Made by a program: the position numbers and the translations under genes. From contig JAHWHZ010000001.1 in the NCBI GenBank assembly GCA_019322895.1, forward strand, positions 459,528 through 523,527: a stretch of 64,000 nucleotides of DNA, written 5' to 3'. Numbering within the stretch: the stretch's first letter is position 1; every line of letters starts with the position of its first letter. Shown here in pieces: positions 3,539-60,131 of the stretch. The notes under the pieces are model-generated. The model was not told the DNA's origin and ran no database searches. It saw only the letters and a list, made by a program, of their open reading frames with translations. The DNA comes from Candidatus Woesearchaeota archaeon (GTDB lineage: Archaea; Nanobdellota; Nanobdellia; Woesearchaeales; ARS49).

Positions 3539-4366
3539 ATGGCATCTTTAAAACAAGCACTAAAGAAAAAATTGACAAAGAAAGAGCTGTCTGCAATGCA
3601 CTCCAGCTTTGATGTAGTTGGAAGCATAGCGATTATAGAGATTCCTGATGAACTAAAGAAAAAAGAGAAGATAATTGCCCAGACAATGATTGGTTTGTTC
3701 AAGCCTGTCAAGACAGTTGTCAAGAAAAGCGGCATTCATTATGGAAAATACAGGAGGCAGAAGTTAAAGGTTCTTGCAGGTGAAAAGAAAAAAGTTGCTG
3801 AATACAAGGAATCTGGTGTTCAGATGAAAGTTGACTTGGAAAAATGTTATTTCAGTTCAAGATTAGGCACAGAAAGACTGCGGATCGCAAAGCAAGTCAA
3901 GCCAAAAGAAAAGATTTTAGTGATGTTTTCAGGCGTTGCTCCTTATCCTTTGGTTTTAGCAAGGAATTCAAAGCCAGAAATCATCTGCGGCATTGAACTT
4001 AATCCAGTTGCGCACAAATTTGCTGAGGAGAATGTCAAGCTTAACAAGATGCAGGATAAGATAAAGCTGTACAAGGGCGATGTTGTCAAGGTTGTTCCTA
4101 AGCTAAAGAAGAAGTTTGACAGGATTCTTATGCCAATGCCAAAGACATCAATTACATTTCTGGAAACTGCTTTCAAGGCAGCGAAAAGAGGCGCAATCAT
4201 TCATTTCTATACTTTTGGAAGGGAGAAAGAGTTCAAGGAAATAAGGGACAAGATTAAAGCAGAGTGCAAGAAACACAAAAAGAAGTGCAGGATTCTTAGA
4301 ACAGTAAAGGCAGGCCATTATGCCCCAGGCGTTTATAGGGTGTGTGTGGATTTCAAATTGCAATGA
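3539..4366 (+). CDS. Trm5/Taw2 (Met-10+) family tRNA methyltransferase
   Basis: SAM-binding motif MFSGVAPYPL and an NLPK-like motif LMPMPK. The start is set at ATG 3539, immediately after the upstream stop. The tracker's 3449 start would overlap the previous gene by 89 nt. Confidence 0.6.
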   Translation: MASLKQALKKKLTKKELSAMHSSFDVVGSIAIIEIPDELKKKEKIIAQTMIGLFKPVKTVVKKSGIHYGKYRRQKLKVLAGEKKKVAEYKESGVQMKVDLEKCYFSSRLGTERLRIAKQVKPKEKILVMFSGVAPYPLVLARNSKPEIICGIELNPVAHKFAEENVKLNKMQDKIKLYKGDVVKVVPKLKKKFDRILMPMPKTSITFLETAFKAAKRGAIIHFYTFGREKEFKEIRDKIKAECKKHKKKCRILRTVKAGHYAPGVYRVCVDFKLQ

Positions 4367-4581
4367 CGCGCTTTGTCTGCTTCTTTAATTGCTTGTTTCT
4401 CAGATTTATCAGATACTGTTCAGCAACTGAAGACTCCGCCAGGCGTCATTGATATTTCCGATTACTTTAAATACTCTTATTCTATACAATATTCCAGTGC
4501 AAAGCGCAATGACGAGGTGAATCCCAATCGAGGCCTAGAAATAGGTCAGTGAGATATTTTGGAAGACCGAGCGCGCACAAA

Positions 4582-23014: not shown

Positions 23015-23072
23015 TTTCCAATAGCGCCTTGCGAAGTCTTGTGGCATAAATGCGGAATAACATAAATCTGGA
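23015..23072. repeat. intergenic repeat element, copy B (core CCAATAgcGCCTTGCGAAGT...AATGCGGA...CATAAATCTGGAAT)
   Basis: Roughly 60-nt direct homology to 46237-46296. Shares the GCCTTGCGAAGT core with 29459-29476 and with the reverse complement of 52788-52805. Confidence 0.7.
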
Positions 23073-23178
23073 ATAAAAGCGATTAAAAAAGTAGATGTAG
23101 CGCGCTATTGGTTAGCACCTGGTGCAGTCTTTTTAAACATAAGGTTTATAAAGCCTCTGCATTGCTTTATTAACTAAA

Positions 23179-29390: not shown

Positions 29391-29456
29391 CTTGCCTCTT
29401 TTTATAAGATTGTTTTTTGTCTTTGACTATTTAAAACTTTCTTTGCAAGGTAAGCG

Positions 29457-29556
29457 GCAATGCTGCCTGGCGAAGTTATCCAAATGACAAGCGGTTTCAG
29501 ATAAATCTGATGTATATGTGATTTAAGCAGCGTAACGTAGCGCAGTATTGCTGCAA
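29457..29556. repeat. intergenic repeat element, copy D (full-length, about 100 nt, terminal inverted repeats)
   Basis: The 5' end is GCAATGCTGCCTGGCGAAGT, the centre is GCGGTTTCAGATAAATCTGA (near-palindrome TCAGAT..ATCTGA) and the 3' end is AGCGCAGTATTGCTGC, the inverse of the 5' end. Homologous to the reverse complement of 52713-52806. Confidence 0.7.
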
Positions 29557-45754: not shown

Positions 45755-46081
45755 ATGAGAAAAGCACAAGGATTGCCTATCACTACTATTATCATTGCTG
45801 CATTAGCACTAGTTGTGCTTGTAGTATTGTTTGCCATATTTACAGGCAGACTATCTATTTTTGGAAGAGGCATTTCCGAATGCCCTGGAATTTGTGTTGC
45901 CAAATATTCTGAAAGCGGTGCAACCACTAGTGGCGTGAAAACAGCAGATGCAACAGCTGCATGTCCTAATCCGCAACTGCAAAGGCCGCTGACAGGAACA
46001 TATATTGAAGTAGGACAGCCAGCTAACAGAAAAGCAGAAGATTTGGTTTTCTGCTCTAAGTGCTGCGTCTCCACAGTCTGA
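45755..46081 (+). CDS. small disulfide-rich pilin-like protein (candidate major pilin), paralog 1
   Basis: MRKAQG|LPITTIIIAALALVVLVVL class III signal, with an approximately 80-aa mature part containing 6 Cys. Confidence 0.55.
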   Translation: MRKAQGLPITTIIIAALALVVLVVLFAIFTGRLSIFGRGISECPGICVAKYSESGATTSGVKTADATAACPNPQLQRPLTGTYIEVGQPANRKAEDLVFCSKCCVSTV

Positions 46082-46236
46082 TGGTAGAGCTGAAGATTCC
46101 TTATTTGCAGGGCGTCACTCCTGCAAGACTTTTTACTTTATTGACTTTGATTGTTCTTTTGGTTATACTCATAACTAAATTCTTTGTTTTGAAAGAGCAT
46201 ATGAGCTTGATTCCGCCTTCTGTATTGCCTTAGGTT

Positions 46237-46296
46237 GCCAATACTGCCTTGCGAAGTTCTCAGATGAATATGCGGATTCTGATACCTCGGGAATAC
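46237..46296. repeat. intergenic repeat element, copy 46(+)
   Basis: GCCAATACTGCCTTGCGAAGTTCTCAGATGAATATGCGGATTCTGATACC. Collinear with copy B at 23015-23072. Confidence 0.7.
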
Positions 46297-46325
46297 TTCT
46301 TAATTATTTGTATGTGAAGTATTCC
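46290..46325. other. perfect 10-bp stem-loop (GGAATACTTC ... GAAGTATTCC) with 16-nt AT-rich loop
   Basis: Read directly: GGAATACTTCttaattatttgtatgtGAAGTATTCC. Confidence 0.7.
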
Positions 46326-46390
46326 GGATGGTGCTCAAGAACCCTTGGTTCTTGACAAATCTGGTTTGCAGGAGGCATCTAGTGCATAAC

Positions 46391-46505
46391 ACAGCGCAGC
46401 ATTGGCTTATGCATAGCACGCTTCGTTCTGCTTCTATTATCGCTTATGTCCAGATTTATGATAAGTGGAATATTGCTTAGATAACTTCGCTAGGTGCTAT
46501 GCATG
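46391..46505. repeat. intergenic repeat element, copy 46(-), inverted relative to the 46(+) copy
   Basis: AGCGCAGCATTGG...CGCTTCGTTCT...CCAGATTTATGATAAG...AACTTCGCTAGGTGC is collinear with 52713-52806. Together with 46237-46296 it forms about 25-bp imperfect terminal inverted repeats (GCGAAGTTCTCAGATGAATATGCGG vs the reverse complement GCGAAGTTATCTAAGCAATATTCC). Confidence 0.65.
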
Positions 46506-46553
46506 TATGTTCTGCCATAAAGTTTATATATGAGAATTAGATTTTATATCAGC

Positions 46554-46895
46554 ATGAAGAAAAGAGGCCAAGGATTGCCAATAACCACCATAATCATAGC
46601 TGCTCTTGCACTGATAGTTCTCGTGGTTCTTATTTTCATATTTTCAGGCAAAATAAGGGTTTTTAGCGGAGAGATGGTTAGCTGCACAAGCAAGGGGGGT
46701 TTTTGTACTTCAAAAGCTTGCGTATTTGGCTATCAATCAGAAATCAAGAATACAGATTGTCCTTCTGGCCAGAAATGTTGCCTTACAATTCTTGGCGCTC
46801 CTGCAGATTCTCCTTGCGCTAATGATGATGACTGTGCAAAAGGTTTAGAGTGTAAAAATAACAAGTGCACCGCAAAGACTGCAGCTAAAAAATAG
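46554..46895 (+). CDS. small disulfide-rich pilin-like protein (candidate major pilin), paralog 2
   Basis: MKKRGQG|LPITTIIIAALALIVLVVL has an N-terminus nearly identical to 45755. The mature part has 10 Cys (knottin-like spacing). The start is set at ATG 46554. Confidence 0.55.
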   Translation: MKKRGQGLPITTIIIAALALIVLVVLIFIFSGKIRVFSGEMVSCTSKGGFCTSKACVFGYQSEIKNTDCPSGQKCCLTILGAPADSPCANDDDCAKGLECKNNKCTAKTAAKK

Positions 46896-46952: not shown

Positions 46953-47060
46953 ATGAAAAAAAGAGGCGTGATTGAGCCAGAGATATTGATAGCAATAGTT
47001 TTGTCAGTCATTTTTCTCATAATCGCAATCTTGGTCTTGACAAGGAAGGGCATCATATGA
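46953..47060 (+). CDS. micro-ORF (35 aa) consisting only of a class III signal peptide plus TM helix
   Basis: MKKRGVIEPEILIAIVLSVIFLIIAILVLTRKGII. Its stop overlaps the next start (ATGA). Missed by the more than 60-aa ORF track. Confidence 0.3.
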   Translation: MKKRGVIEPEILIAIVLSVIFLIIAILVLTRKGII

Positions 47061-48025
47061 ACAAGAAAAGCCAGGCAGGAATCCCCACAAGCGTGCGTAT
47101 AATAGGCCTTGCAATAGCACTGTTAGCGCTTATACTTGTTTCAGGAGTGTTTGTTCAGTATATTTTTGGAGCTGTAAAGACAGGGGAATGCCAGTGGGAC
47201 CTGCTGTTCTCAGCCATCTCAACAGTGGCTGGCGGAGGCGCGATGGATATTCCTCCTGAATGCAAGGCAGAATACATCACCATAACAAAAAAAGATCTTG
47301 AAAAAGAGCTTGATACTGCTGCAGCAAGAATAAAAACATATGATTCAAATCCAGAAAAATATAAGAAGATACGCGCCGCAGGATTCCAGTATTACAAAAA
47401 TGAGCCAGAAAAGAATTACAGGGTTCAGATGGAATGGGCCTTGAACAAGATAGTTGCAGATAAGCTGCTTTCCTGCTGGAAAAAGGTATGGAAAGGAAGC
47501 CTGCCAATGTTTGATTATTGGTGGAAGCTTGTTGACTGGACCTGGTTTGGATTGAGTGAAGAAGATTATACCAAAAAGCAGTTAGAATATATTGATGAAC
47601 AATTTAATGCAGGAGTTTTAAAGATCTACGGCCCTCCTGCTTTCTGCATTATATGCTATCACTTGAATTTTGATAAGGATGTCAGGGGATTATTTCAAGA
47701 AGATATCAAATCCTTGAAGGTATGGATGGCAGGCAACAAGGCCCCGAATTCAGATAAAAGCTATCTTGAAGAACTGCTTGAAGGACAGACTTTTGAAAGC
47801 CCGCTGTATATCCCCCCATATGAATATAACATTCAAAAGCCAGTAGGGATTGTTTACAAAAGGCTTAATCCTCAGGCATTAAACGTGGTTAAAGACTGGA
47901 TTCTTAGCAACTTGGCTGGATATGAGAAAGCAAAGGCAGTGAATATTCTTGCTCTTGCAGATTATGATGTGGTAACTACTCCAGCTGGTAAAAATGGATT
48001 AGGGTGTTTTTATGTCATTGATTAA
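47057..48025 (+). CDS. pilin-like protein (class III signal peptide, 322 aa)
   Basis: MNKKSQAG|IPTSVRIIGLAIALLALILV. Confidence 0.5.
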   Translation: MNKKSQAGIPTSVRIIGLAIALLALILVSGVFVQYIFGAVKTGECQWDLLFSAISTVAGGGAMDIPPECKAEYITITKKDLEKELDTAAARIKTYDSNPEKYKKIRAAGFQYYKNEPEKNYRVQMEWALNKIVADKLLSCWKKVWKGSLPMFDYWWKLVDWTWFGLSEEDYTKKQLEYIDEQFNAGVLKIYGPPAFCIICYHLNFDKDVRGLFQEDIKSLKVWMAGNKAPNSDKSYLEELLEGQTFESPLYIPPYEYNIQKPVGIVYKRLNPQALNVVKDWILSNLAGYEKAKAVNILALADYDVVTTPAGKNGLGCFYVID

Positions 48026-48179
48026 GATGCAAAACAAGAAAGCAATGGAAATACCTGGATGGATTTATGTTGTAGGCTTGATAATCGGCTTGCTGGTCAT
48101 ATTGTTGATAATCTGGATTTCTGCAAAATCCGGCCAAAAGGCAACTGGTTTGCTGGATACCATCAAAGGATTACTATGA
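48012..48179 (+). CDS. micro-ORF (55 aa) with class III signal-peptide-like N-terminus
   Basis: MSLIKMQNKKA|MEIPGWIYVVGLIIGLLVILLIIW. Translationally coupled at both ends (14-nt overlap upstream, ATGA downstream). Confidence 0.3.
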   Translation: MSLIKMQNKKAMEIPGWIYVVGLIIGLLVILLIIWISAKSGQKATGLLDTIKGLL

Positions 48180-51100
48180 AAAAAAGAGGTGTAAGTGGGG
48201 CTTTTATGTGGGTTTCTATAGTTATAGGGCTCATTGTTATCTTGTCCATTGGAACAGTCCTTTACCAGGGAAGAGATTATCTCTCAGAAAAAATATTTGG
48301 AAAAAAATACATCTCTGCTGAAGAAAAAGAATTTGTTCCTTACGAAGTGGAGTTAGAAGGAGAAGTAAAGACAGCAGATGATTCTATGAAAGCTCTTGTT
48401 TGCGCTTTCAACAGTTTGGCTATTGAGAAAAAAGGCTGGCTCATTGAAGGAGTGTGTCCAGAAGGGTTTTATTCAAAAGAAGTAGAAGAGAAAAAGAAAA
48501 AAGAGGCAGAAGAGAAGAAAGCAGCAGAAGAAAAGAAAAAAGCAGAGGAAAAGAAAACAGAACCCACGCCTGCTCCAACAGGAGCAATGGTTTCAATAAC
48601 AGGCGCCGCAACTAAAGAGGATTGCGATGGTGCCTTGTATGGCCAGACTTGTGTTGAGTGCCGTGAAAGCGAGTTTGGCATGAAAACAATTACTTTGCCA
48701 GACAGCGAATATGATGCTACAAAAATGTTAGCTAAAGCTGCAGTTCAGTGCTGGAATGATTTTAAAGGTCCAAAAGGCAATAAAGGCGAAAAAAATATTC
48801 TTTGCAATAAGGTTGTCATACCAGGGACTGCACCTGGCTGGGTAATAACAAAAGAAGAGTTTAGAGAACGTCTAGAAAAATTTGAAGGAGAAGTAGGTTC
48901 TGACTTGGCAGGTCTTGGTACTGGAACACAGAATGTTGATTGGAAATTTGGCGAGGCAATTGTCTTAAATATTAAACAAGAATTTTATATCTGCGCTAAC
49001 GATGCTTACGATGCCAATCCGTTTGACGCAGATGAGATTTTCTTCACGCGAAATCTAAATGATTGTGAAGTTGAAACAAGAGGGCTTGCCGAAAAAGAAT
49101 TTACCTGCGAAATTAAAACTTTTGAGTTGCCGCAGGAGATTGGCAGCGACATCAGTCTTTTTAATTGGGCAGAAGAGTTCATTAACAAGTATAATGACCC
49201 GGAATATCTTGCGTATTACGAGTCTTTTCCAAGAGGAGAGGAAGCAGCATGGCATTTAGAAGAAGGCGATTTTATTGTTGATGTTATACTGTTCGGTGCA
49301 GTCATGAATACGTTGCCTGTGCTTGGAAAAGGTGTGCGCCAAGCTGGCGGATTATTTAGAAGAATATTCACTAAAAAAATTCTTGTGGAAGTGCCTGAAG
49401 ATATTGTTAAGAAAGCTTCTAAAAAAACCATAACAACAGTATTAGGGAAAACAGGCAAAGAGATTGGAACAGAACTCGGCGAACAAACTATAAAAGAACT
49501 GACAGATATGTTTGGCAAAGGCATGGAGCGCCAGCTAAAATCACAGATACTCTATGATAATATACTTAAAGAAGTGGGGGAAGATGCTGCAGAAACAGCC
49601 CGCCAGGCATTTCTCTCAAAATATTCTATCTATAAAGGAATGGGAAAGACAGACGACCAGATTGCAACTCTTCTGAAAAAAGAGATCCCAGAAGCAATTG
49701 GAAAGACACCTGATGAAGTCAGCGGACTAATCAAGAATGTGGATGACGTGATTAAGAAATCCCTGGCAGAGCTTAGCGAATCCGCTAGGAATAAGCAGAC
49801 TGCCAGGCAGTTTTTTACAAAATATCTCTTGAAAGAAGGCGGTGAAAGCCTCAATAAAGAAGCTATGGAAAATATATTAGCTACAGCCTTGACTAAAGAG
49901 ACATATGATAAGCTTGGCCCAGAAGCAGCAGAACAAATAATGCAGCGTTCCCTTTCATATACTGATGAAATTATTGATGTCACTAAAGGCACCGATGAAT
50001 TGTTAAAAACCCAGTCATTGATAGGCCGAACTTATGGTGCAGTTGTTGGCCAAGTTAATAAAGAATTCAACCTTTTTGCAAATATATTGAGCCAGCCAAA
50101 TAAAGATACCTTATCAAGATTTTTATTAGGAGTAACTCCCAAAGAAATTGGCGAAGCTGTTGCGCAAAAAGGAGGGGCATTAGGTGCTATCGGAGCAGCT
50201 GCAGCGCGTTATAATCCTATTCATATTTCAATAGGAACAGGAAAAATTGTTCCAATTCCTAGACCTTTGTTGGTACGTTCACTTGTTGGAACTGCATATA
50301 AGACTACGCGTACAGGCATTCGTTTTACCTCTGATGCTGCAGGGGCTGCATGGCATTCCAGGGCTGCGCGTTACACACTGGCATATCTCCTTGCAACGCA
50401 GATAGCTGAATCAGATGCAAAGAATGATAAATTAGGTTATAATGAGGAAAATACGCTTATCCTGCAAAAGCCTTATGATTTTGATGCTAAGGCAAAATAT
50501 TTTTTGTCAGATGAAACTAATAAGTATTACTTGAACTTGCACAAGTATCAGTATGGTGATGCGCGGTTCTTCCTTGCAAGTCCCTGCAAAGCAGACTTGA
50601 CAATACCTAAAACAGATTGTGATTGTAATATCTATTCTGGAGATTACATCTTGAAATCCAATAATCAGCCATTTGACCCTGCTTCTGTAAAATTCAAGAG
50701 CGATGACGCGATTCATACTGTGTATAAATATGATGAACTTTCAAAAGATGGTAAAAGAGCTGCAATGGATTATTGTTTAGTAAAAGACCAGGAGTTTGGT
50801 GTTTTATGCAACATATTTGTTATGAAGGATCCTGAAGCTTATGAAAAGTTTACAAAATATGTTTATAAGAATGTTTATAGCCCTGCAATTGATTTCATGC
50901 AAAAATATAAAGTAGATGAAGAAAAGATTGCTGATATCATTGAAAGAAAAGAAGGGGATGTATCGCTTACAATAGGCCACATAATTTCAGATGCTGGCGA
51001 AGAATTAAGGCCGCATTATGAATTTGGTGCTTTCTGCTTTTTTGCAGAAGGCGGTATTGGTCCTTGCTCAGTCAATATTCCTGGTGCGCTCACTGAGATG

Positions 51101-51700
51101 CTTGTAGAAACAAGAGCTCCTGAGCTTACATTAAGAAAAACTCCTTTGTCTTATGAAGAATTCAAAAAAGAGTTTGATAAGGTTATTGCAAGTGGTTATT
51201 ATGAGAATATTGCATTTTCAGTTTATCATAAACTGGGAGCGATTAGGAAAGGCGAAGGTATGTATTTCATGGATATGTATGACCCAAATGGATTCTTAGA
51301 TATTGCTACAAGACACACTTACTTAAATTACAATGTTGTTGAAGACAGCAAGATTGACAAAAAGAAGATTGCAAAGCTTTGTAATACTAGATTAGATGAG
51401 CGGGAGCCACACATAAAAAGTATGCTCGCAACAAAAGTATCTATTGCTTGTTTTAATGCCCAGCCAAGCATAGAAGGATATCCTGATTATAATAATGGCC
51501 ATAATTATTGCTTCAGCAGCGAGCATGCTGGAATTGAGACTGCCAAAGATATTGCCACAGGCATTTCTATTGCAATTGACTTTGGTGCAGGAATCATAAG
51601 TGGCGGCTTGGCAGAAGCGCCTGTAGCAGCTCTTACTGGCCTTGGTTCTGCATGGTTTGCTCATGAAATGGATAAAAAGAAATTCTGGCCAAATCATTAA
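48176..51700 (+). CDS. giant (1175 aa) pilin-like surface protein with Lys/Glu-rich repeat
   Basis: The start is set at ATG 48176 (MKKRG|VSGAFMWVSIVIGLIVILSIG). EKKKKEAEEKKAAEEKKKAEEKK is encoded by an approximately 85-nt pure polypurine tract. The remainder has no recognisable domain. Confidence 0.55.
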   Translation: MKKRGVSGAFMWVSIVIGLIVILSIGTVLYQGRDYLSEKIFGKKYISAEEKEFVPYEVELEGEVKTADDSMKALVCAFNSLAIEKKGWLIEGVCPEGFYSKEVEEKKKKEAEEKKAAEEKKKAEEKKTEPTPAPTGAMVSITGAATKEDCDGALYGQTCVECRESEFGMKTITLPDSEYDATKMLAKAAVQCWNDFKGPKGNKGEKNILCNKVVIPGTAPGWVITKEEFRERLEKFEGEVGSDLAGLGTGTQNVDWKFGEAIVLNIKQEFYICANDAYDANPFDADEIFFTRNLNDCEVETRGLAEKEFTCEIKTFELPQEIGSDISLFNWAEEFINKYNDPEYLAYYESFPRGEEAAWHLEEGDFIVDVILFGAVMNTLPVLGKGVRQAGGLFRRIFTKKILVEVPEDIVKKASKKTITTVLGKTGKEIGTELGEQTIKELTDMFGKGMERQLKSQILYDNILKEVGEDAAETARQAFLSKYSIYKGMGKTDDQIATLLKKEIPEAIGKTPDEVSGLIKNVDDVIKKSLAELSESARNKQTARQFFTKYLLKEGGESLNKEAMENILATALTKETYDKLGPEAAEQIMQRSLSYTDEIIDVTKGTDELLKTQSLIGRTYGAVVGQVNKEFNLFANILSQPNKDTLSRFLLGVTPKEIGEAVAQKGGALGAIGAAAARYNPIHISIGTGKIVPIPRPLLVRSLVGTAYKTTRTGIRFTSDAAGAAWHSRAARYTLAYLLATQIAESDAKNDKLGYNEENTLILQKPYDFDAKAKYFLSDETNKYYLNLHKYQYGDARFFLASPCKADLTIPKTDCDCNIYSGDYILKSNNQPFDPASVKFKSDDAIHTVYKYDELSKDGKRAAMDYCLVKDQEFGVLCNIFVMKDPEAYEKFTKYVYKNVYSPAIDFMQKYKVDEEKIADIIERKEGDVSLTIGHIISDAGEELRPHYEFGAFCFFAEGGIGPCSVNIPGALTEMLVETRAPELTLRKTPLSYEEFKKEFDKVIASGYYENIAFSVYHKLGAIRKGEGMYFMDMYDPNGFLDIATRHTYLNYNVVEDSKIDKKKIAKLCNTRLDEREPHIKSMLATKVSIACFNAQPSIEGYPDYNNGHNYCFSSEHAGIETAKDIATGISIAIDFGAGIISGGLAEAPVAALTGLGSAWFAHEMDKKKFWPNH

Positions 51701-52381: not shown

Positions 52382-52711
52382 ATGAAAAAAAGAGCTGTTC
52401 AATTGTCTGTGCAGACAATGATTATTGTAGCTCTTGGCTTGATTGTTTTGCTTGTCTTGATTTTTCTTATCAGAGGCCAGATTCAGAAAGGTGCTGGACA
52501 GTATTTTGATATTGGCACGAAAATCGGCAAAGAGGCAGAGCTTGAGAAATGCCAGGGCGGATTCTTTACTACAAAACAATGTGCCACAAACTGCATAAAG
52601 GATCCTAAGCTGGATGAGAATTATTATTGGGAGGATATTGGCCCAAAAGACTGCAAGGCTCCTACGCCGGTATGCTGCCAAAGAGGAGATAAAAAAGCTT
52701 CTATAAAATGA
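52382..52711 (+). CDS. small Cys-containing pilin-like protein
   Basis: MKKRA|VQLSVQTMIIVALGLIVLLVLIFLI, with 6 Cys in the mature part. Confidence 0.5.
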   Translation: MKKRAVQLSVQTMIIVALGLIVLLVLIFLIRGQIQKGAGQYFDIGTKIGKEAELEKCQGGFFTTKQCATNCIKDPKLDENYYWEDIGPKDCKAPTPVCCQRGDKKASIK

Positions 52712-52712
52712 T

Positions 52713-52806
52713 GCAATGCTGCGCTTCGTTCTTATGCTGAAACCGCCTGTTACCTAGATTTATCAGAAATCACTCTTAACATTAAAGACTTCGCAAGGCA
52801 GCATTT
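52713..52806. repeat. intergenic repeat element, copy 52 (minus orientation relative to copy D)
   Basis: GCAATGCTGCGCTTCGTTCT...CTAGATTTATCAGAAATC...GACTTCGCAAGGCAGCATTTGC. Its reverse complement begins AAATGCTGCCTTGCGAAGT. It starts 1 nt after the upstream stop and ends 6 nt before a TATA-like TTTAAAAAT. Confidence 0.7.
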
Positions 52807-52858
52807 GCACGTTTAAAAATAAGAAACTTTTAAATAACAATTATGCTAATTCTTTATT

Positions 52859-53380
52859 ATGTCAAAAAAAGGGGCAGTAGCATTAGAATACTTGGTTGAT
52901 TTAATTCCAAGAATAATAATATTTGTAGGGCTTCTGGCTGCATTGGCTGTTTTGTTTAATGTTATAGTAAAGCAATCAGCAACAACTCCTGCTGAAGATG
53001 ACTTGAACAGGGTTTTTGAAAAAATAAAGCAATTGCAGCCATACAGAGCAGAAAAAGTGTTTACAACAGGCGATGATTATACATTAGTCTTGTACGGACA
53101 GGAGCATATTGATCTTCCTGAGCAGTGCAGCAAAGCAGCATGCTTGTGTGTTACAGATGCAAAAGGAAAAACATCATGTAAAAGACTTACTGATGTGAGC
53201 AAGCAGTGCGCCACCTCAAAATGCGCCGCAAGCCCGATGTGTTTTGATCCTATAAGCTCAAATAAAGTTTATATCAGGGGAACCGGCACGGTCCGAGAGC
53301 CAATTTACATTTGCAGGCACTGCACAGAATTAATGATTACAGATTCAGAAGCATTATGTAAAGGACATGCAGCAAAATGA
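52859..53380 (+). CDS. pilin-like protein, Cys-rich
   Basis: MSKKG|AVALEYLVDLIPRIIIFVGLLAALAVLF is a classic archaeal prepilin N-terminus, with 12 Cys. Confidence 0.55.
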   Translation: MSKKGAVALEYLVDLIPRIIIFVGLLAALAVLFNVIVKQSATTPAEDDLNRVFEKIKQLQPYRAEKVFTTGDDYTLVLYGQEHIDLPEQCSKAACLCVTDAKGKTSCKRLTDVSKQCATSKCAASPMCFDPISSNKVYIRGTGTVREPIYICRHCTELMITDSEALCKGHAAK

Positions 53381-59623: not shown

Positions 59624-60103
59624 ATGGAAAGAAGAAGTTATTCAGGATCCCGTAGAGGATTTGGATCCAGACCGCCTGTAAATCAGGGCGATGTATTAGA
59701 AGTAACCATAGAAGCTGTCGGCGAAAAAGGCGACGGAATTGCCAGGAAAGACGGATTTGTCTTGTTCATTCCTGGTGTCAAGGAAGGAGACCGCGTGAAA
59801 GTCAAGGTGACGCGCGTTCTAAGAAAGGTGGGATTTGCAGAAGTTGTTGGAGAAGGTGAAGCACCTGCTGAGGAAGCTCCTGCTCCAGAAGCAGAGATGC
59901 CTGCTGAAGAGCCTGAAGCAGAGCCAGAAACTCCTGTAGAAGACACAGAAGATTTTGGCGAAGAAGTCGCAGAAGAGGTGTCTGTGGAAGAAGCTCCTGC
60001 AGAAGAGGTTCCTGCTGAGGAAGCTCCAGAAGAACCTGAAGCTCCAGAAGAGCCTGCAGAAGAGGCTCCTGAAGAACCTGCTGAAGAAAAGCCTGCTGAA
60101 TAA
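59624..60103 (+). CDS. TRAM-domain protein with acidic Pro/Glu/Ala-rich tail
   Basis: TRAM core GDVLEVTIEAVGEKGDGIARKDGFVLFIPGVKEGDRVKVKVTRV. The tail is (PEE/AEE)n. ATG 59624 follows AGGTGA (the tracker's GTG 59612 lies inside the SD). Confidence 0.6.
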   Translation: MERRSYSGSRRGFGSRPPVNQGDVLEVTIEAVGEKGDGIARKDGFVLFIPGVKEGDRVKVKVTRVLRKVGFAEVVGEGEAPAEEAPAPEAEMPAEEPEAEPETPVEDTEDFGEEVAEEVSVEEAPAEEVPAEEAPEEPEAPEEPAEEAPEEPAEEKPAE

Positions 60104-60131
60104 GCAGTTAATTTTTTTTATCTTTTTTAAA

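What the first reader, a model, noticed from the sequence alone, without database searches (positions are those of the whole stretch)
46237..46505. Two repeat-element copies in opposite orientation form a roughly 270-bp MITE-like unit
The plus copy at 46237-46296 and the minus copy at 46391-46505 place about 25-bp imperfect terminal inverted repeats (GCGAAGTTCTCAGATGAATATGCGG ... GGAATATTGCTTAGATAACTTCGC) around a core. The core contains a perfect 10-bp hairpin. This is the geometry of a miniature inverted-repeat transposable element. It sits exactly between two paralogous pilin genes, which would be compatible with recombination or promoter delivery at this site.
Basis: seen in the sequence. 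Interest (0 to 1): 0.65.

Follow-up and report, generated by a model that had tools for sequence, protein, structure and literature searches.

The report
Two adjacent ~100-bp mobile hairpin repeats
The flagged 270 bp is not one transposon but two neighbouring copies, tail to tail, of a ~100-bp inverted-repeat element that is scattered through Woesearchaeota genomes, leaves 8-bp target duplications, and is cleanly missing from this spot in a close relative.

Summary
The inverted similarity and the 10-bp hairpin are real, but the parsing is wrong. The region holds two complete members of one repeat family. Copy E is canonical (46406-46506, minus strand, 91 bits). Copy F is rearranged (46237-46406, plus strand). 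Each has its own 11-bp terminal inverted repeat.

The window has four more copies. Pattern scans plus a covariance model found 107 distinct copies in all, all in Woesearchaeota-type contigs, always intergenic and in either orientation.

Fifteen of 96 copies have 8-nt flanks matching at 7/8 or better (1.15 expected). A close relative (L042) has a clean empty site with one TGCCATAA. The window has TGCCTTAG...TGCCATAA around a 279-bp insert. A more distant relative (L043) has a single F-type copy at the same site.

Best reading: a MITE-like non-autonomous DNA transposon family, with two members inserted side by side. No autonomous partner was found. Promoter delivery is refuted, because the promoter is present in the empty site.

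Two puzzles remain. Syntenic copies keep the family motifs while the variable columns diverge. Adjacent pairs are tail-to-tail 6 times and head-to-head never.

Verdict: new member of a known kind, moderate interest.

The parts
46237..46406 (+). Copy F: a rearranged family member of the CAATGCTGCC-type subfamily. It has a 5' module (46237-46299, model positions 4-61), a 47-nt linker, and a 3' module (46347-46406, model positions 39-97).
   Evidence: CM hit 46235-46329, 27.5 bits, E 1e-3. Local alignments to the model consensus and to the L043 copy. MFE -60.8 kcal/mol, z -3.8.
46237..46247 (+). F left terminal inverted repeat, GCCAATACTGC. It pairs with 46396-46406.
   Evidence: Inverted repeat I8, 11 nt, 91% complementary.
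46396..46406 (+). F right terminal inverted repeat, GCAGCATTGGC.
   Evidence: I8.
46290..46325 (.). The 'perfect 10-bp hairpin' (GGAATACTTC / GAAGTATTCC). The 3' arm is an inverted duplicate of F's own positions just after the central motif.
   Evidence: (I5).
46335..46355 (.). Second short hairpin (TCAAGAACC / GGTTCTTGA). The 3' arm is the start of F's 3' module.
   Evidence: (I14).
46406..46506 (-). Copy E: a canonical ~100-nt family member of the GCATAGCACC-type subfamily.
   Evidence: CM 91.3 bits, E 7e-18. About 80% similar to L082 1999-2099 at an unrelated locus.
46409..46419 (.). E terminal inverted repeat arm, ATGCATAGCAC on the + strand. It pairs with 46494-46504.
   Evidence: I6, 11 nt, 100% complementary.
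46494..46504 (.). E terminal inverted repeat arm, GTGCTATGCAT on the + strand.
   Evidence: I6.
46226..46233 (.). Left copy of the flanking direct repeat, TGCCTTAG. It doubles as the last codon plus stop of the 50-aa ORF.
   Evidence: Comparison with the empty site in L042 and the occupied site in L043.
46513..46520 (.). Right copy of the flanking direct repeat, TGCCATAA (6/8 to the left copy). The inserted block is 46234-46512 (279 bp).
46081..46233 (+). Conserved 50-aa hydrophobic ORF. Its ATG overlaps the stop of the upstream gene. The insertion lies immediately after its stop codon.
   Evidence: Called gene in L037/L039/L043. Conserved in L042 and L043.
46519..46531 (+). BRE/TATA-like box AAAGTTTATATAT of the downstream pilin-like gene (ATG at 46554, about 27 nt downstream). 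It is present unchanged in the empty site, so the elements did not deliver it.
   Evidence: That it acts as a promoter is inferred from position and archaeal consensus.
29454..29555 (+). Family copy A.
   Evidence: CM 100.4 bits.
23015..23115 (+). Family copy B, followed at 23116-23135 by a truncated left-end-like fragment and a T5 run.
   Evidence: CM 97.2 bits..
52709..52810 (-). Family copy C, between two further pilin-like ORFs.
   Evidence: CM 101.4 bits..
4356..4455 (-). Family copy D.
   Evidence: CM 99 bits.

Best explanation
The feature is two adjacent, convergent (3' ends touching) members of a ~100-bp non-coding repeat family specific to Woesearchaeota-type DPANN archaea.

Anatomy of one unit:
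- a 9-15-bp terminal inverted repeat;
- a conserved left subterminal box, CCTNGCGAAGT;
- a 24-nt variable stretch;
- a central box, ATAAATCTG;
- a ~28-nt variable stretch;
- a right box, AGAAGC..AACGAAGCG.

The family behaves as a miniature non-autonomous DNA transposon. It inserts into intergenic DNA in either orientation and duplicates 8 bp of target. That implies a staggered cut by a transposase supplied in trans. The duplication is shown; the enzyme is inferred.

At this locus the block 46234-46512 sits in the target TGCCATAA, directly after the stop codon of a small conserved ORF and just upstream of the next gene's promoter. F is a rearranged older copy, with an F-type copy at the same site in a more distant relative. 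E is a second member beside it. A close relative has the unoccupied or precisely restored site.

The pair is a by-product of element accumulation at a tolerated site. It is not a single composite element and not a promoter donor.
For: - Family and copies: 5 strong and 1 weak copy in the window. 42 plus 102 CM hits in loci from the genome and metagenome pattern scans, 107 distinct, in Woesearchaeota-type contigs. The few bacterial pattern hits get no CM support.
- Length: about 100-103 nt for canonical copies (start/end coordinates). Copies never overlap ORFs, and orientation relative to neighbours is roughly random (16/14/10/6).
- TIRs: 97.5% paired, 8 of 9 pairs with changes on both sides. 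Mismatches show no RNA-type bias (G.T 10 vs A.C 12), which fits a DNA-level inverted repeat.
- Target-site duplications: 8-nt flanks match at >=7/8 in 15 of 96 copies against 1.15 expected; 8/8 in 4 against 0.11. An example is L005, TAAGAGAG on both sides.
- Empty site: L042 (neighbour protein 82% identical, same gene order) reads ...CTGTATTGCC|ATAAAGTTTATATAT with no element even with CM filters off.
- Same site in L043 (54% identical neighbour): one F-type copy between TTCCATAA and TGCCATAA. Its 3' half aligns with F.
- E is about 80% similar to a copy at an unrelated locus, L082.
Against: - No autonomous element or multi-copy transposase was found in about 0.8 Mb of held Woesearchaeal DNA.
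- The window's own six copies have no convincing individual duplications. The best is 6/8, for copy D and for the F+E block (and direct reading).
- Syntenic copies in different genomes keep the family-conserved columns (29-32 of 32) while the variable columns fall to 14-31 of 43, and unit length is kept. Neutral decay of dead transposon copies does not predict this.
- Adjacent pairs are tail-to-tail 6 times and head-to-head never, which simple random insertion does not predict.
- F's presence in L043 but absence in the closer L042 needs either a precise loss or two independent hits on one target.
Confidence: 0.7

Rival explanations
1. One reading: F and E together are one ~270-280-bp composite MITE. 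It would be mobilised through its two outward-facing left ends, which act as ~25-bp imperfect TIRs.
For: - The whole block is what is missing in L042, and a degenerate 8-bp direct repeat (6/8) flanks the block as a whole.
- Tail-to-tail pairs recur: 6 against 0 head-to-head.
- The L082 pair has the same subfamily make-up, a CAATGCTGCC-type copy plus a GCATAGCACC-type copy.
Against: - Each copy has its own complete TIRs.
- The two outer ends differ in the terminal 11-15 nt and agree only in the subterminal box.
- L043 has the same duplication around a single copy.
- Pair junctions differ between loci, with gaps of 0, 2, 4, 5 and 30 nt and different partners. No second instance of this composite was found among the 107 distinct copies held (window plus the scan loci).
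- Clear duplications in other genomes flank single units.
Confidence: 0.1
2. The family is a set of paralogous genes for a ~100-nt structured small RNA: a rod-like hairpin with a GAA/GAA internal loop and a conserved apical box. The RNA would be transcribed from its own or shared promoters or as 3' UTRs. The locus would hold two such genes, and mobility would be secondary.
For: - Strong covariation in the terminal helix.
- Invariant GC/GC and GU/AC pairs around a conserved 3x3 GAA/GAA loop.
- Fixed 24- and 28-nt spacings and in-situ conservation of the motif columns in syntenic copies.
- A TATA-like box about 20-25 nt upstream of many copies.
- A T5 run after some CAATGCTGCC-type copies.
Against: - No Rfam family matches above chance.
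- Covariation is confined to the terminal repeat, which a transposase-recognised TIR also explains. The interior shows none.
- There is no G.U over A.C excess.
- The TATA peak is equally strong on the antisense side, 17 against 14. Many copies start within 6 nt of an upstream stop codon, or sit between convergent genes with no room for a promoter.
- Folding z-scores are modest, -1.2 to -2.7.
- The 8-bp duplications show DNA-level transposition.
Confidence: 0.15
3. The family is a host-maintained DNA-level repeat, REP/ERIC-like. It would be a binding platform for a chromatin, topology or termination factor, or for a domesticated transposase. It would be kept by selection next to gene ends and only occasionally copied.
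For: - Copies are always intergenic, and about half abut a stop codon on either strand.
- Function looks orientation-independent.
- Motif columns are conserved in situ while variable columns drift.
- Pairing statistics are symmetric at the DNA level.
- Density is high in small genomes: 6 copies in 64 kb.
Against: - No binding protein or associated gene was identified.
- Clean 8-bp duplications and an empty site show real mobility.
- Gene conversion among about 100 copies per genome could mimic in-situ conservation.
- A close relative does without the elements at this locus, with the same genes and promoter.
Confidence: 0.2
4. Chance inverted similarity in an AT-rich spacer, with no element at all.
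For: The exact inverted 8-mer alone has E 2.3 within the spacer.
Against: - CM E-values are 7e-18 and 1e-3 in the window.
- More than 100 homologous copies exist elsewhere.
- The block is absent from the orthologous site in L042.
Confidence: 0.01

Closest known systems
Prokaryotic MITEs (for example Neisseria Correia/NEMIS elements, enterobacterial ERIC/IRU, pneumococcal RUP, Sulfolobus SM-type MITEs). Comparison from general knowledge.
   Same: - About 100-150 bp, non-coding, with terminal inverted repeats that let the whole unit fold as a long imperfect hairpin.
- Many dispersed intergenic copies in both orientations, often just after genes.
- Fixed-length target duplication.
- Longer variants with internal insertions (F here; L017 1248-1400).
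- Presence/absence between relatives.
   Different: - The duplication is 8 bp, against TA for Correia and ERIC.
- No matching autonomous IS has been found.
- Three internal boxes are conserved across very divergent subfamilies, with fixed spacing and variable sequence between them.
- TIR sequences differ between subfamilies.
- The motifs stay conserved in syntenic copies.
REP/BIME elements and REPINs mobilised by RAYT (IS200/IS605-like) transposases. Comparison from general knowledge.
   Same: - Abundant intergenic palindromic repeats in both orientations.
- They occur as inverted doublets.
- They may be retained by the host.
- The mobilising enzyme need not be multi-copy.
   Different: - REPs are 20-40 nt, and REPIN doublets form one hairpin.
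- HUH-type transposition leaves no target duplication.
- Here single 100-nt units carry 8-bp duplications.
- No RAYT-like gene was seen or searched for specifically.
IS1-family ends. This is a lead from memory only: ends GGnnnTG, 8-9-bp duplication, IS1 IRL GGTGATGCTGCC...
   Same: - The CAATGCTGCC-type copies begin GGCAATGCTGCC (copy A), sharing ATGCTGCC with my recollection of the IS1 inverted repeat.
- The 8-bp duplication fits the IS1 range.
   Different: - The GCATAGCACC-type ends do not fit this pattern.
- No IS1-type transposase was looked for or found.
- The resemblance was not tested against ISfinder and may be coincidental.
Archaeal box C/D sRNA genes (architecture and placement only).
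   Same: - Terminal stem, conserved boxes at both ends and in the middle, two fixed-length variable stretches.
- Genes packed against neighbouring stop codons in either orientation.
   Different: - There are no C (RUGAUGA) or D (CUGA) boxes and no k-turn geometry. A 3-nt bulge is separated from the G.A pairs by two Watson-Crick pairs.
- The unit is twice as long.
- The only Rfam C/D hit is at chance level (SNORD77, E 0.8, 18 bits against a cutoff of 35).

Membership tests
MITE (non-autonomous DNA transposon) | Short, non-coding unit | tested here: met
   Canonical copies span about 100-103 nt (start/end coordinates). No ORF of at least 70 aa spans any of 48 copies.
MITE (non-autonomous DNA transposon) | Terminal inverted repeats | tested here: met
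   TIRs of 9-15 bp in nearly all copies. The 9 core pairs are 97.5% complementary. E has 11/11 and F has 10/11.
MITE (non-autonomous DNA transposon) | Target-site duplication of constant length | tested here: met
   Across the family, 15 of 96 copies have 8-nt flanks at >=7/8 against 1.15 expected from shuffled pairings. For the window locus only a degenerate 6/8 repeat remains, TGCCTTAG/TGCCATAA, around the F+E block.
MITE (non-autonomous DNA transposon) | Multiple dispersed copies per genome | tested here: met
   Six copies in this 64-kb window. More than 20 in the Yap100.bin1.6 MAG contigs.
MITE (non-autonomous DNA transposon) | Occupied versus empty orthologous sites | tested here: met
   L042 has a clean empty site with one TGCCATAA. 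L043 has one copy. The window has two.
MITE (non-autonomous DNA transposon) | Autonomous partner with matching ends encoding a transposase | tested here: inconclusive
   None was found among about 0.8 Mb of held loci. There were no distant TIR pairs around ORFs and no multi-copy protein family. MAG contigs tend to lose IS copies, so absence here is weak evidence.
   Five other tail-to-tail pairs exist (L012, L061, L079, L082, L100), but with different partners and junctions. None repeats the F-E junction.
   Both sub-units have their own complete TIRs. The outer ends match only in the shared subterminal box.
Structured small-RNA gene family | Covariation supporting a secondary structure beyond what DNA-level constraints explain | tested here: inconclusive
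   Covariation is strong but limited to the terminal repeat. G.T and A.C mismatches are equally frequent, 10 against 12.
Structured small-RNA gene family | Own promoter and terminator, discrete transcript | tested here: inconclusive
   A TATA-like peak at -25..-21 appears on both sides, 17 against 14. T4+ runs downstream occur in 18 copies against 15 in the antisense control. Many copies have no room for a promoter. Transcripts cannot be tested with these tools.
Structured small-RNA gene family | Match to a described RNA family | tested here: not met
   Rfam 15 gives nothing at gathering score in the window. Only chance-level hits appear at E<=10. No tRNA was found.
REP/REPIN-RAYT system | 20-40-nt palindromes, no target duplication, associated RAYT gene | tested here: not met
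   The unit is about 100 nt and has 8-bp duplications. A RAYT gene was not specifically searched for.
Integron attC sites | R''/R' core sites (RYYYAAC/GTTRRRY), one per cassette, in co-oriented arrays next to an integrase | tested here: not met
   The ends are CAATGCTGC/GCATAGCAC types. Copies are 6-20 kb apart on both strands among housekeeping genes.
Box C/D or H/ACA guide RNAs | C/D boxes with a k-turn, or a pseudouridylation pocket plus an ACA tail | tested here: not met
   No such boxes appear in the alignment of 42-102 copies. The 3' tails are not ANA-conserved. The Rfam C/D hit is at chance level.

The most novel reading that the evidence does not exclude
The ~100-bp unit may be more than junk DNA. 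It could be a mobile functional module: a structured RNA, or a protein-binding DNA cassette with three conserved boxes and fixed spacing. Woesearchaeota would keep it under purifying selection after insertion, for example as a gene-end insulator, terminator or RNA-stability element. Tail-to-tail doublets like F/E would be a preferred or functional arrangement. That would make it a lineage-specific, transposable regulatory or ncRNA element in highly streamlined DPANN genomes.
Probability: 0.25. Interest if true: 0.65.

Novelty: new member of a known kind. Interest (0 to 1): 0.38.

Why it matters
DPANN archaea have very small, tightly packed genomes, and little is known about their mobile DNA or non-coding elements. 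A ~100-bp repeat at roughly one copy per 10 kb in this window, shared by Woesearchaeota from hypersaline sediment, groundwater, trench and ocean samples, matters in three ways:

- It is a source of assembly breaks and of strain-level structural variation. Here it sits right at the promoter of a surface-protein gene.
- It is a handy marker for insertion polymorphism in population studies.
- Because its boxes stay conserved in syntenic copies, it is a candidate for an exapted regulatory or RNA element.

For the locus itself, the result removes the idea that the spacer supplies a promoter or drives recombination between the two pilin-like genes.

Tried and rejected
- tRNA and Rfam scans found nothing.
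- Box C/D, H/ACA, k-turn, bulge-helix-bulge, hammerhead-like and attC readings were checked by eye against the 42-102-copy alignments and rejected for lack of the defining boxes or geometry.
- The 'own promoter' idea looked good by eye but failed its control. The TATA-like peak is equally present on the antisense side, and many copies abut stop codons.
- A mutual-information scan found no supported interior helices.
- The search for an autonomous element led nowhere. Left ends without nearby right ends were only truncated solo ends, or two separate copies around housekeeping genes. Long-range inverted repeats with duplications gave none. All-against-all BLASTP for multi-copy proteins found only orthologues of housekeeping genes.
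- No similarity to phage records.
- No paper in the held library links MITEs with DPANN or Woesearchaeota.
- A separate duplication for E alone could not be identified.
- The L079/L082 locus is not orthologous to any window locus.
- The IS1 resemblance is from memory and was not tested.

Full report
**Setting**

The window is archaeal in style. It has TTTATATA-type promoter boxes and short or absent leaders. Its relatives are Woesearchaeota MAGs. The same sequence occurs in JGI and ENA metagenome contigs such as Ga0180433_10004546.

The finding lies in the 472-bp gap between two ORFs, 45755-46081 and 46554-46895. These ORFs are paralogues (46% identity, E 2e-16). Both start with a K/R-G-Q-G-L-P-I-T-T-hydrophobic stretch that looks like an archaeal class III (pilin-type) signal. 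Pfam recognises neither, so 'pilin' remains an inference.

The first 150 bp of the gap is not spacer. It encodes a conserved 50-aa hydrophobic ORF (46081-46233), which is called as a gene in related contigs and conserved in two relatives.

**Checking the observation**

The quoted inverted similarity exists. GCGAAGTT is identical, then the match is 16/21 in a local alignment. The 10-bp perfect hairpin is at 46290-46299/46316-46325.

On its own the exact inverted 8-mer is a chance-level event (E 2.3). Its significance comes from a repeat family.

BLAST of the spacer against the rest of the window pointed to short matches near 4.4, 23.0, 29.5 and 52.7 kb. Reading those places showed a ~100-nt unit with:

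- complementary ends;
- a left box, CCTNGCGAAGT;
- a central box, ATAAATCTG;
- a right box, AGAAGC..AACGAAGCG.

A covariance model built from five window copies finds exactly five strong copies in the window, at 91-101 bits:

| Copy | Coordinates | Strand |
|---|---|---|
| D | 4356-4455 | - |
| B | 23015-23115 | + |
| A | 29454-29555 | + |
| E | 46406-46506 | - |
| C | 52709-52810 | - |

It also finds one weak copy, F, at 46235-46329 (+, 27.5 bits, E 1e-3).

**What the flagged region contains**

- **E** is a canonical copy with a perfect 11-bp terminal inverted repeat (46409-46419/46494-46504).
- **F** extends to 46406, where GCAGCATTGGC pairs with GCCAATACTGC at 46237-46247.
- F is rearranged. 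Positions 46237-46299 match model positions 4-61, and 46347-46406 match positions 39-97.
- The 47 nt in between carry inverted duplicates of the adjoining F sequence.

Its 'minus copy 46391-46505' includes F's 3' repeat. Its '25-bp TIRs' are the homologous left ends of two elements lying tail to tail.

**The family elsewhere**

One degenerate pattern built on the three boxes was scanned against GTDB species genomes and against JGI metagenome contigs.

- In the genome scan, 32 of 36 hit loci are Woesearchaeota-type MAGs from trench, groundwater and other samples. The four bacterial hits get no model support.
It is dominated by the Ga01804xx sample series that also holds the window.
- The model finds 42 and 102 copies in these loci.
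- Adding the window's six copies and the L043 copy gives 107 distinct copies. Canonical copies span about 100-103 nt (coordinates).
- Rfam has no family for it.
- Copies never overlap ORFs. They occur in all four arrangements relative to neighbouring genes (16 same/same, 14 opposite/opposite, 10, 6).
- About half start or end within a few bases of a stop codon on one strand or the other.

**Mobile DNA or RNA gene?**

The terminal 9 bp covary strongly. They are 97.5% paired, and 8 of 9 pairs have double changes, far above shuffled and slid controls. I first read that, together with an apparent TATA box about 20 nt upstream, as a small-RNA gene family. Four controls argue otherwise.

1. The TATA-like peak is as strong on the antisense side, 17 against 14. 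Many copies have no room for a promoter.
2. No interior helix is supported by covariation.
3. Mismatches within the terminal repeat are G.T 10 against A.C 12. An RNA stem should tolerate G.U but not A.C. A DNA inverted repeat is symmetric.
4. Many copies are flanked by 8-bp direct repeats. With the same procedure applied to shuffled flank pairings, 15 of 96 copies score >=7/8 against 1.15 expected, and 4 score 8/8 against 0.11. Examples are L005 TAAGAGAG, L026 GATAATTA and L030 CAAATGTA.

Both ends of a transposon must fit the same transposase. Co-variation of the two arms between subfamilies is therefore expected for TIRs too.

**The orthologous site in relatives**

Homologues of the 322-aa protein downstream led to two syntenic contigs.

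- **L042** (82% identical protein, identical gene order) has only 185 bp between the two pilin-like genes and no element even with filters off. Its sequence runs ...CTCTGTATTGCC|ATAAAGTTTATATATGAGAATTAG....
- **The window** is nearly identical on both sides but carries 279 extra bp (46234-46512). They lie between TGCCTTAG (46226-46233, the last codon and stop of the small ORF) and TGCCATAA (46513-46520). L042 has one TGCCATAA. This is an empty-site signature.
- **L043** (54% identical protein) has, at the same place, one canonical F-type copy (81.9 bits) plus a ~34-nt truncated left end, between TTCCATAA and TGCCATAA.

L043's 3' half aligns with F, including variable positions such as TTGACAAATCTG and GCATAAC.

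There are two possible histories. Either an F-type insertion is old and L042 lost the block precisely between the duplicated 8-mers, or the target just upstream of this promoter was hit more than once. Either way the elements are insertions. The promoter and start of the downstream gene are present unchanged in the empty site, so nothing was 'delivered'.

**Is the pair itself a unit?**

Among adjacent copies (at most 40 nt apart) there are six tail-to-tail pairs, three tandem pairs and no head-to-head pair. The tail-to-tail pairs are the window, L012, L061, L079, L082 and L100. L079 and L082 are orthologous to each other.

The L082 pair even has the same subfamily make-up as F/E. Its minus copy is about 80% similar to E. 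This excess is unexplained.

However:

- junctions differ (gaps of 0-30 nt, different partners);
- no second F-E junction was found;
- L043 shows the same duplication around one copy;
- clear duplications elsewhere flank single units.

I therefore rate the composite reading at about 0.1.

**What does not fit a plain dead-transposon picture**

In copies that share both flanks across different genomes, which are thus orthologous, the 32 family-conserved columns are 29-32 identical. The 43 variable columns fall to 14-31 identical, and unit length is kept. Possible causes are selection on the boxes after insertion, gene conversion among the many copies, or repeated hits on hot spots. I could not separate these.

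No autonomous partner or multi-copy transposase turned up in about 0.8 Mb of held DNA. MAG contigs under-represent IS copies, so this is weak evidence. A resemblance of GGCAATGCTGCC ends and the 8-bp duplication to IS1-family ends is from memory only and untested.

**Verdict**

The region is an insertion of two members of a previously undescribed (as far as Rfam and the held literature show) Woesearchaeal MITE-like family. It is not a single 270-bp MITE, and it does not supply the promoter.

It is a new member of a known kind. Interest is moderate because of the family's abundance in streamlined genomes, the conserved three-box architecture, the in-situ conservation and the tail-to-tail bias.

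Noticed in passing
window 46081-46233: A 50-aa hydrophobic ORF (MVELKIPYLQGVTPARLFTLLTLIVLLVILITKFFVLKEHMSLIPPSVLP). Its ATG overlaps the TGA of the upstream pilin-like gene. It is conserved in L042 and L043 and called as a gene in related contigs.
   Followed up: partly
window 23116-23138; L009 ~2948-2990; L032; L043 3461-3494; L082 1969-1998: CAATGCTGCC-type copies are often followed directly by a ~20-35-nt truncated second left end. In several cases this ends in CTTTTTAAA (a T5 run plus a TATA-like box). This subfamily's unit may be ~140 nt, or tandem insertion followed by truncation may be recurrent.
   Followed up: partly
L012 2150-2410; L014 ~4330-4490; L020; L100 800-1060; L061: In the CG10-type and some other genomes, an extra conserved motif GGTGCAGTCAAGTTAAGTG lies ~10 nt outside the element's 5' end. 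In tail-to-tail pairs it appears on both outer sides as a longer inverted repeat.
   Followed up: no
L017 1248-1400 (also L102 3523-3675): A 153-nt variant of the element has a 51-nt insertion just after the central box. The insertion is made of two short hairpins, at a similar position to the rearrangement in window copy F.
   Followed up: no
L024 4873-4974, L031 7124-7225, L006 4448-4548, L059 494-594, L092 5357-5458: Five syntenic copies in different genomes sit after a gene ending ...GTWLKEF and before an AAAAGCTATAAATA promoter. They keep 30-32 of 32 motif columns but only 14-31 of 43 variable columns. One terminal pair shows a compensated change (A-T to C-G) between orthologues; L009 and L032 show another.
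   Followed up: partly
window 45755-46081, 46554-46895, 52382-52711, 52859-53380 and 47057-51700: A cluster of small ORFs with class III signal-like N-termini and cysteine-rich C-termini, plus large proteins with no Pfam match (322 aa, 1213 aa). This is probably a surface-appendage or adhesion locus. Three of the window's six repeat copies lie inside it.
   Followed up: no
window 59842-60107: An in-frame tandem repeat encoding an acidic E/A/P-rich tail (periods of 12-15 nt), in an ORF resembling the ribosomal protein S6e-like gene seen in L079.
   Followed up: no
window 29460-29517: Copy A gives a sub-threshold Rfam hit to a C/D-box snoRNA model (SNORD77, 18.3 bits against a cutoff of 35, E 0.8). 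It was judged to be chance, since no C/D boxes are conserved across the family.
   Followed up: yes
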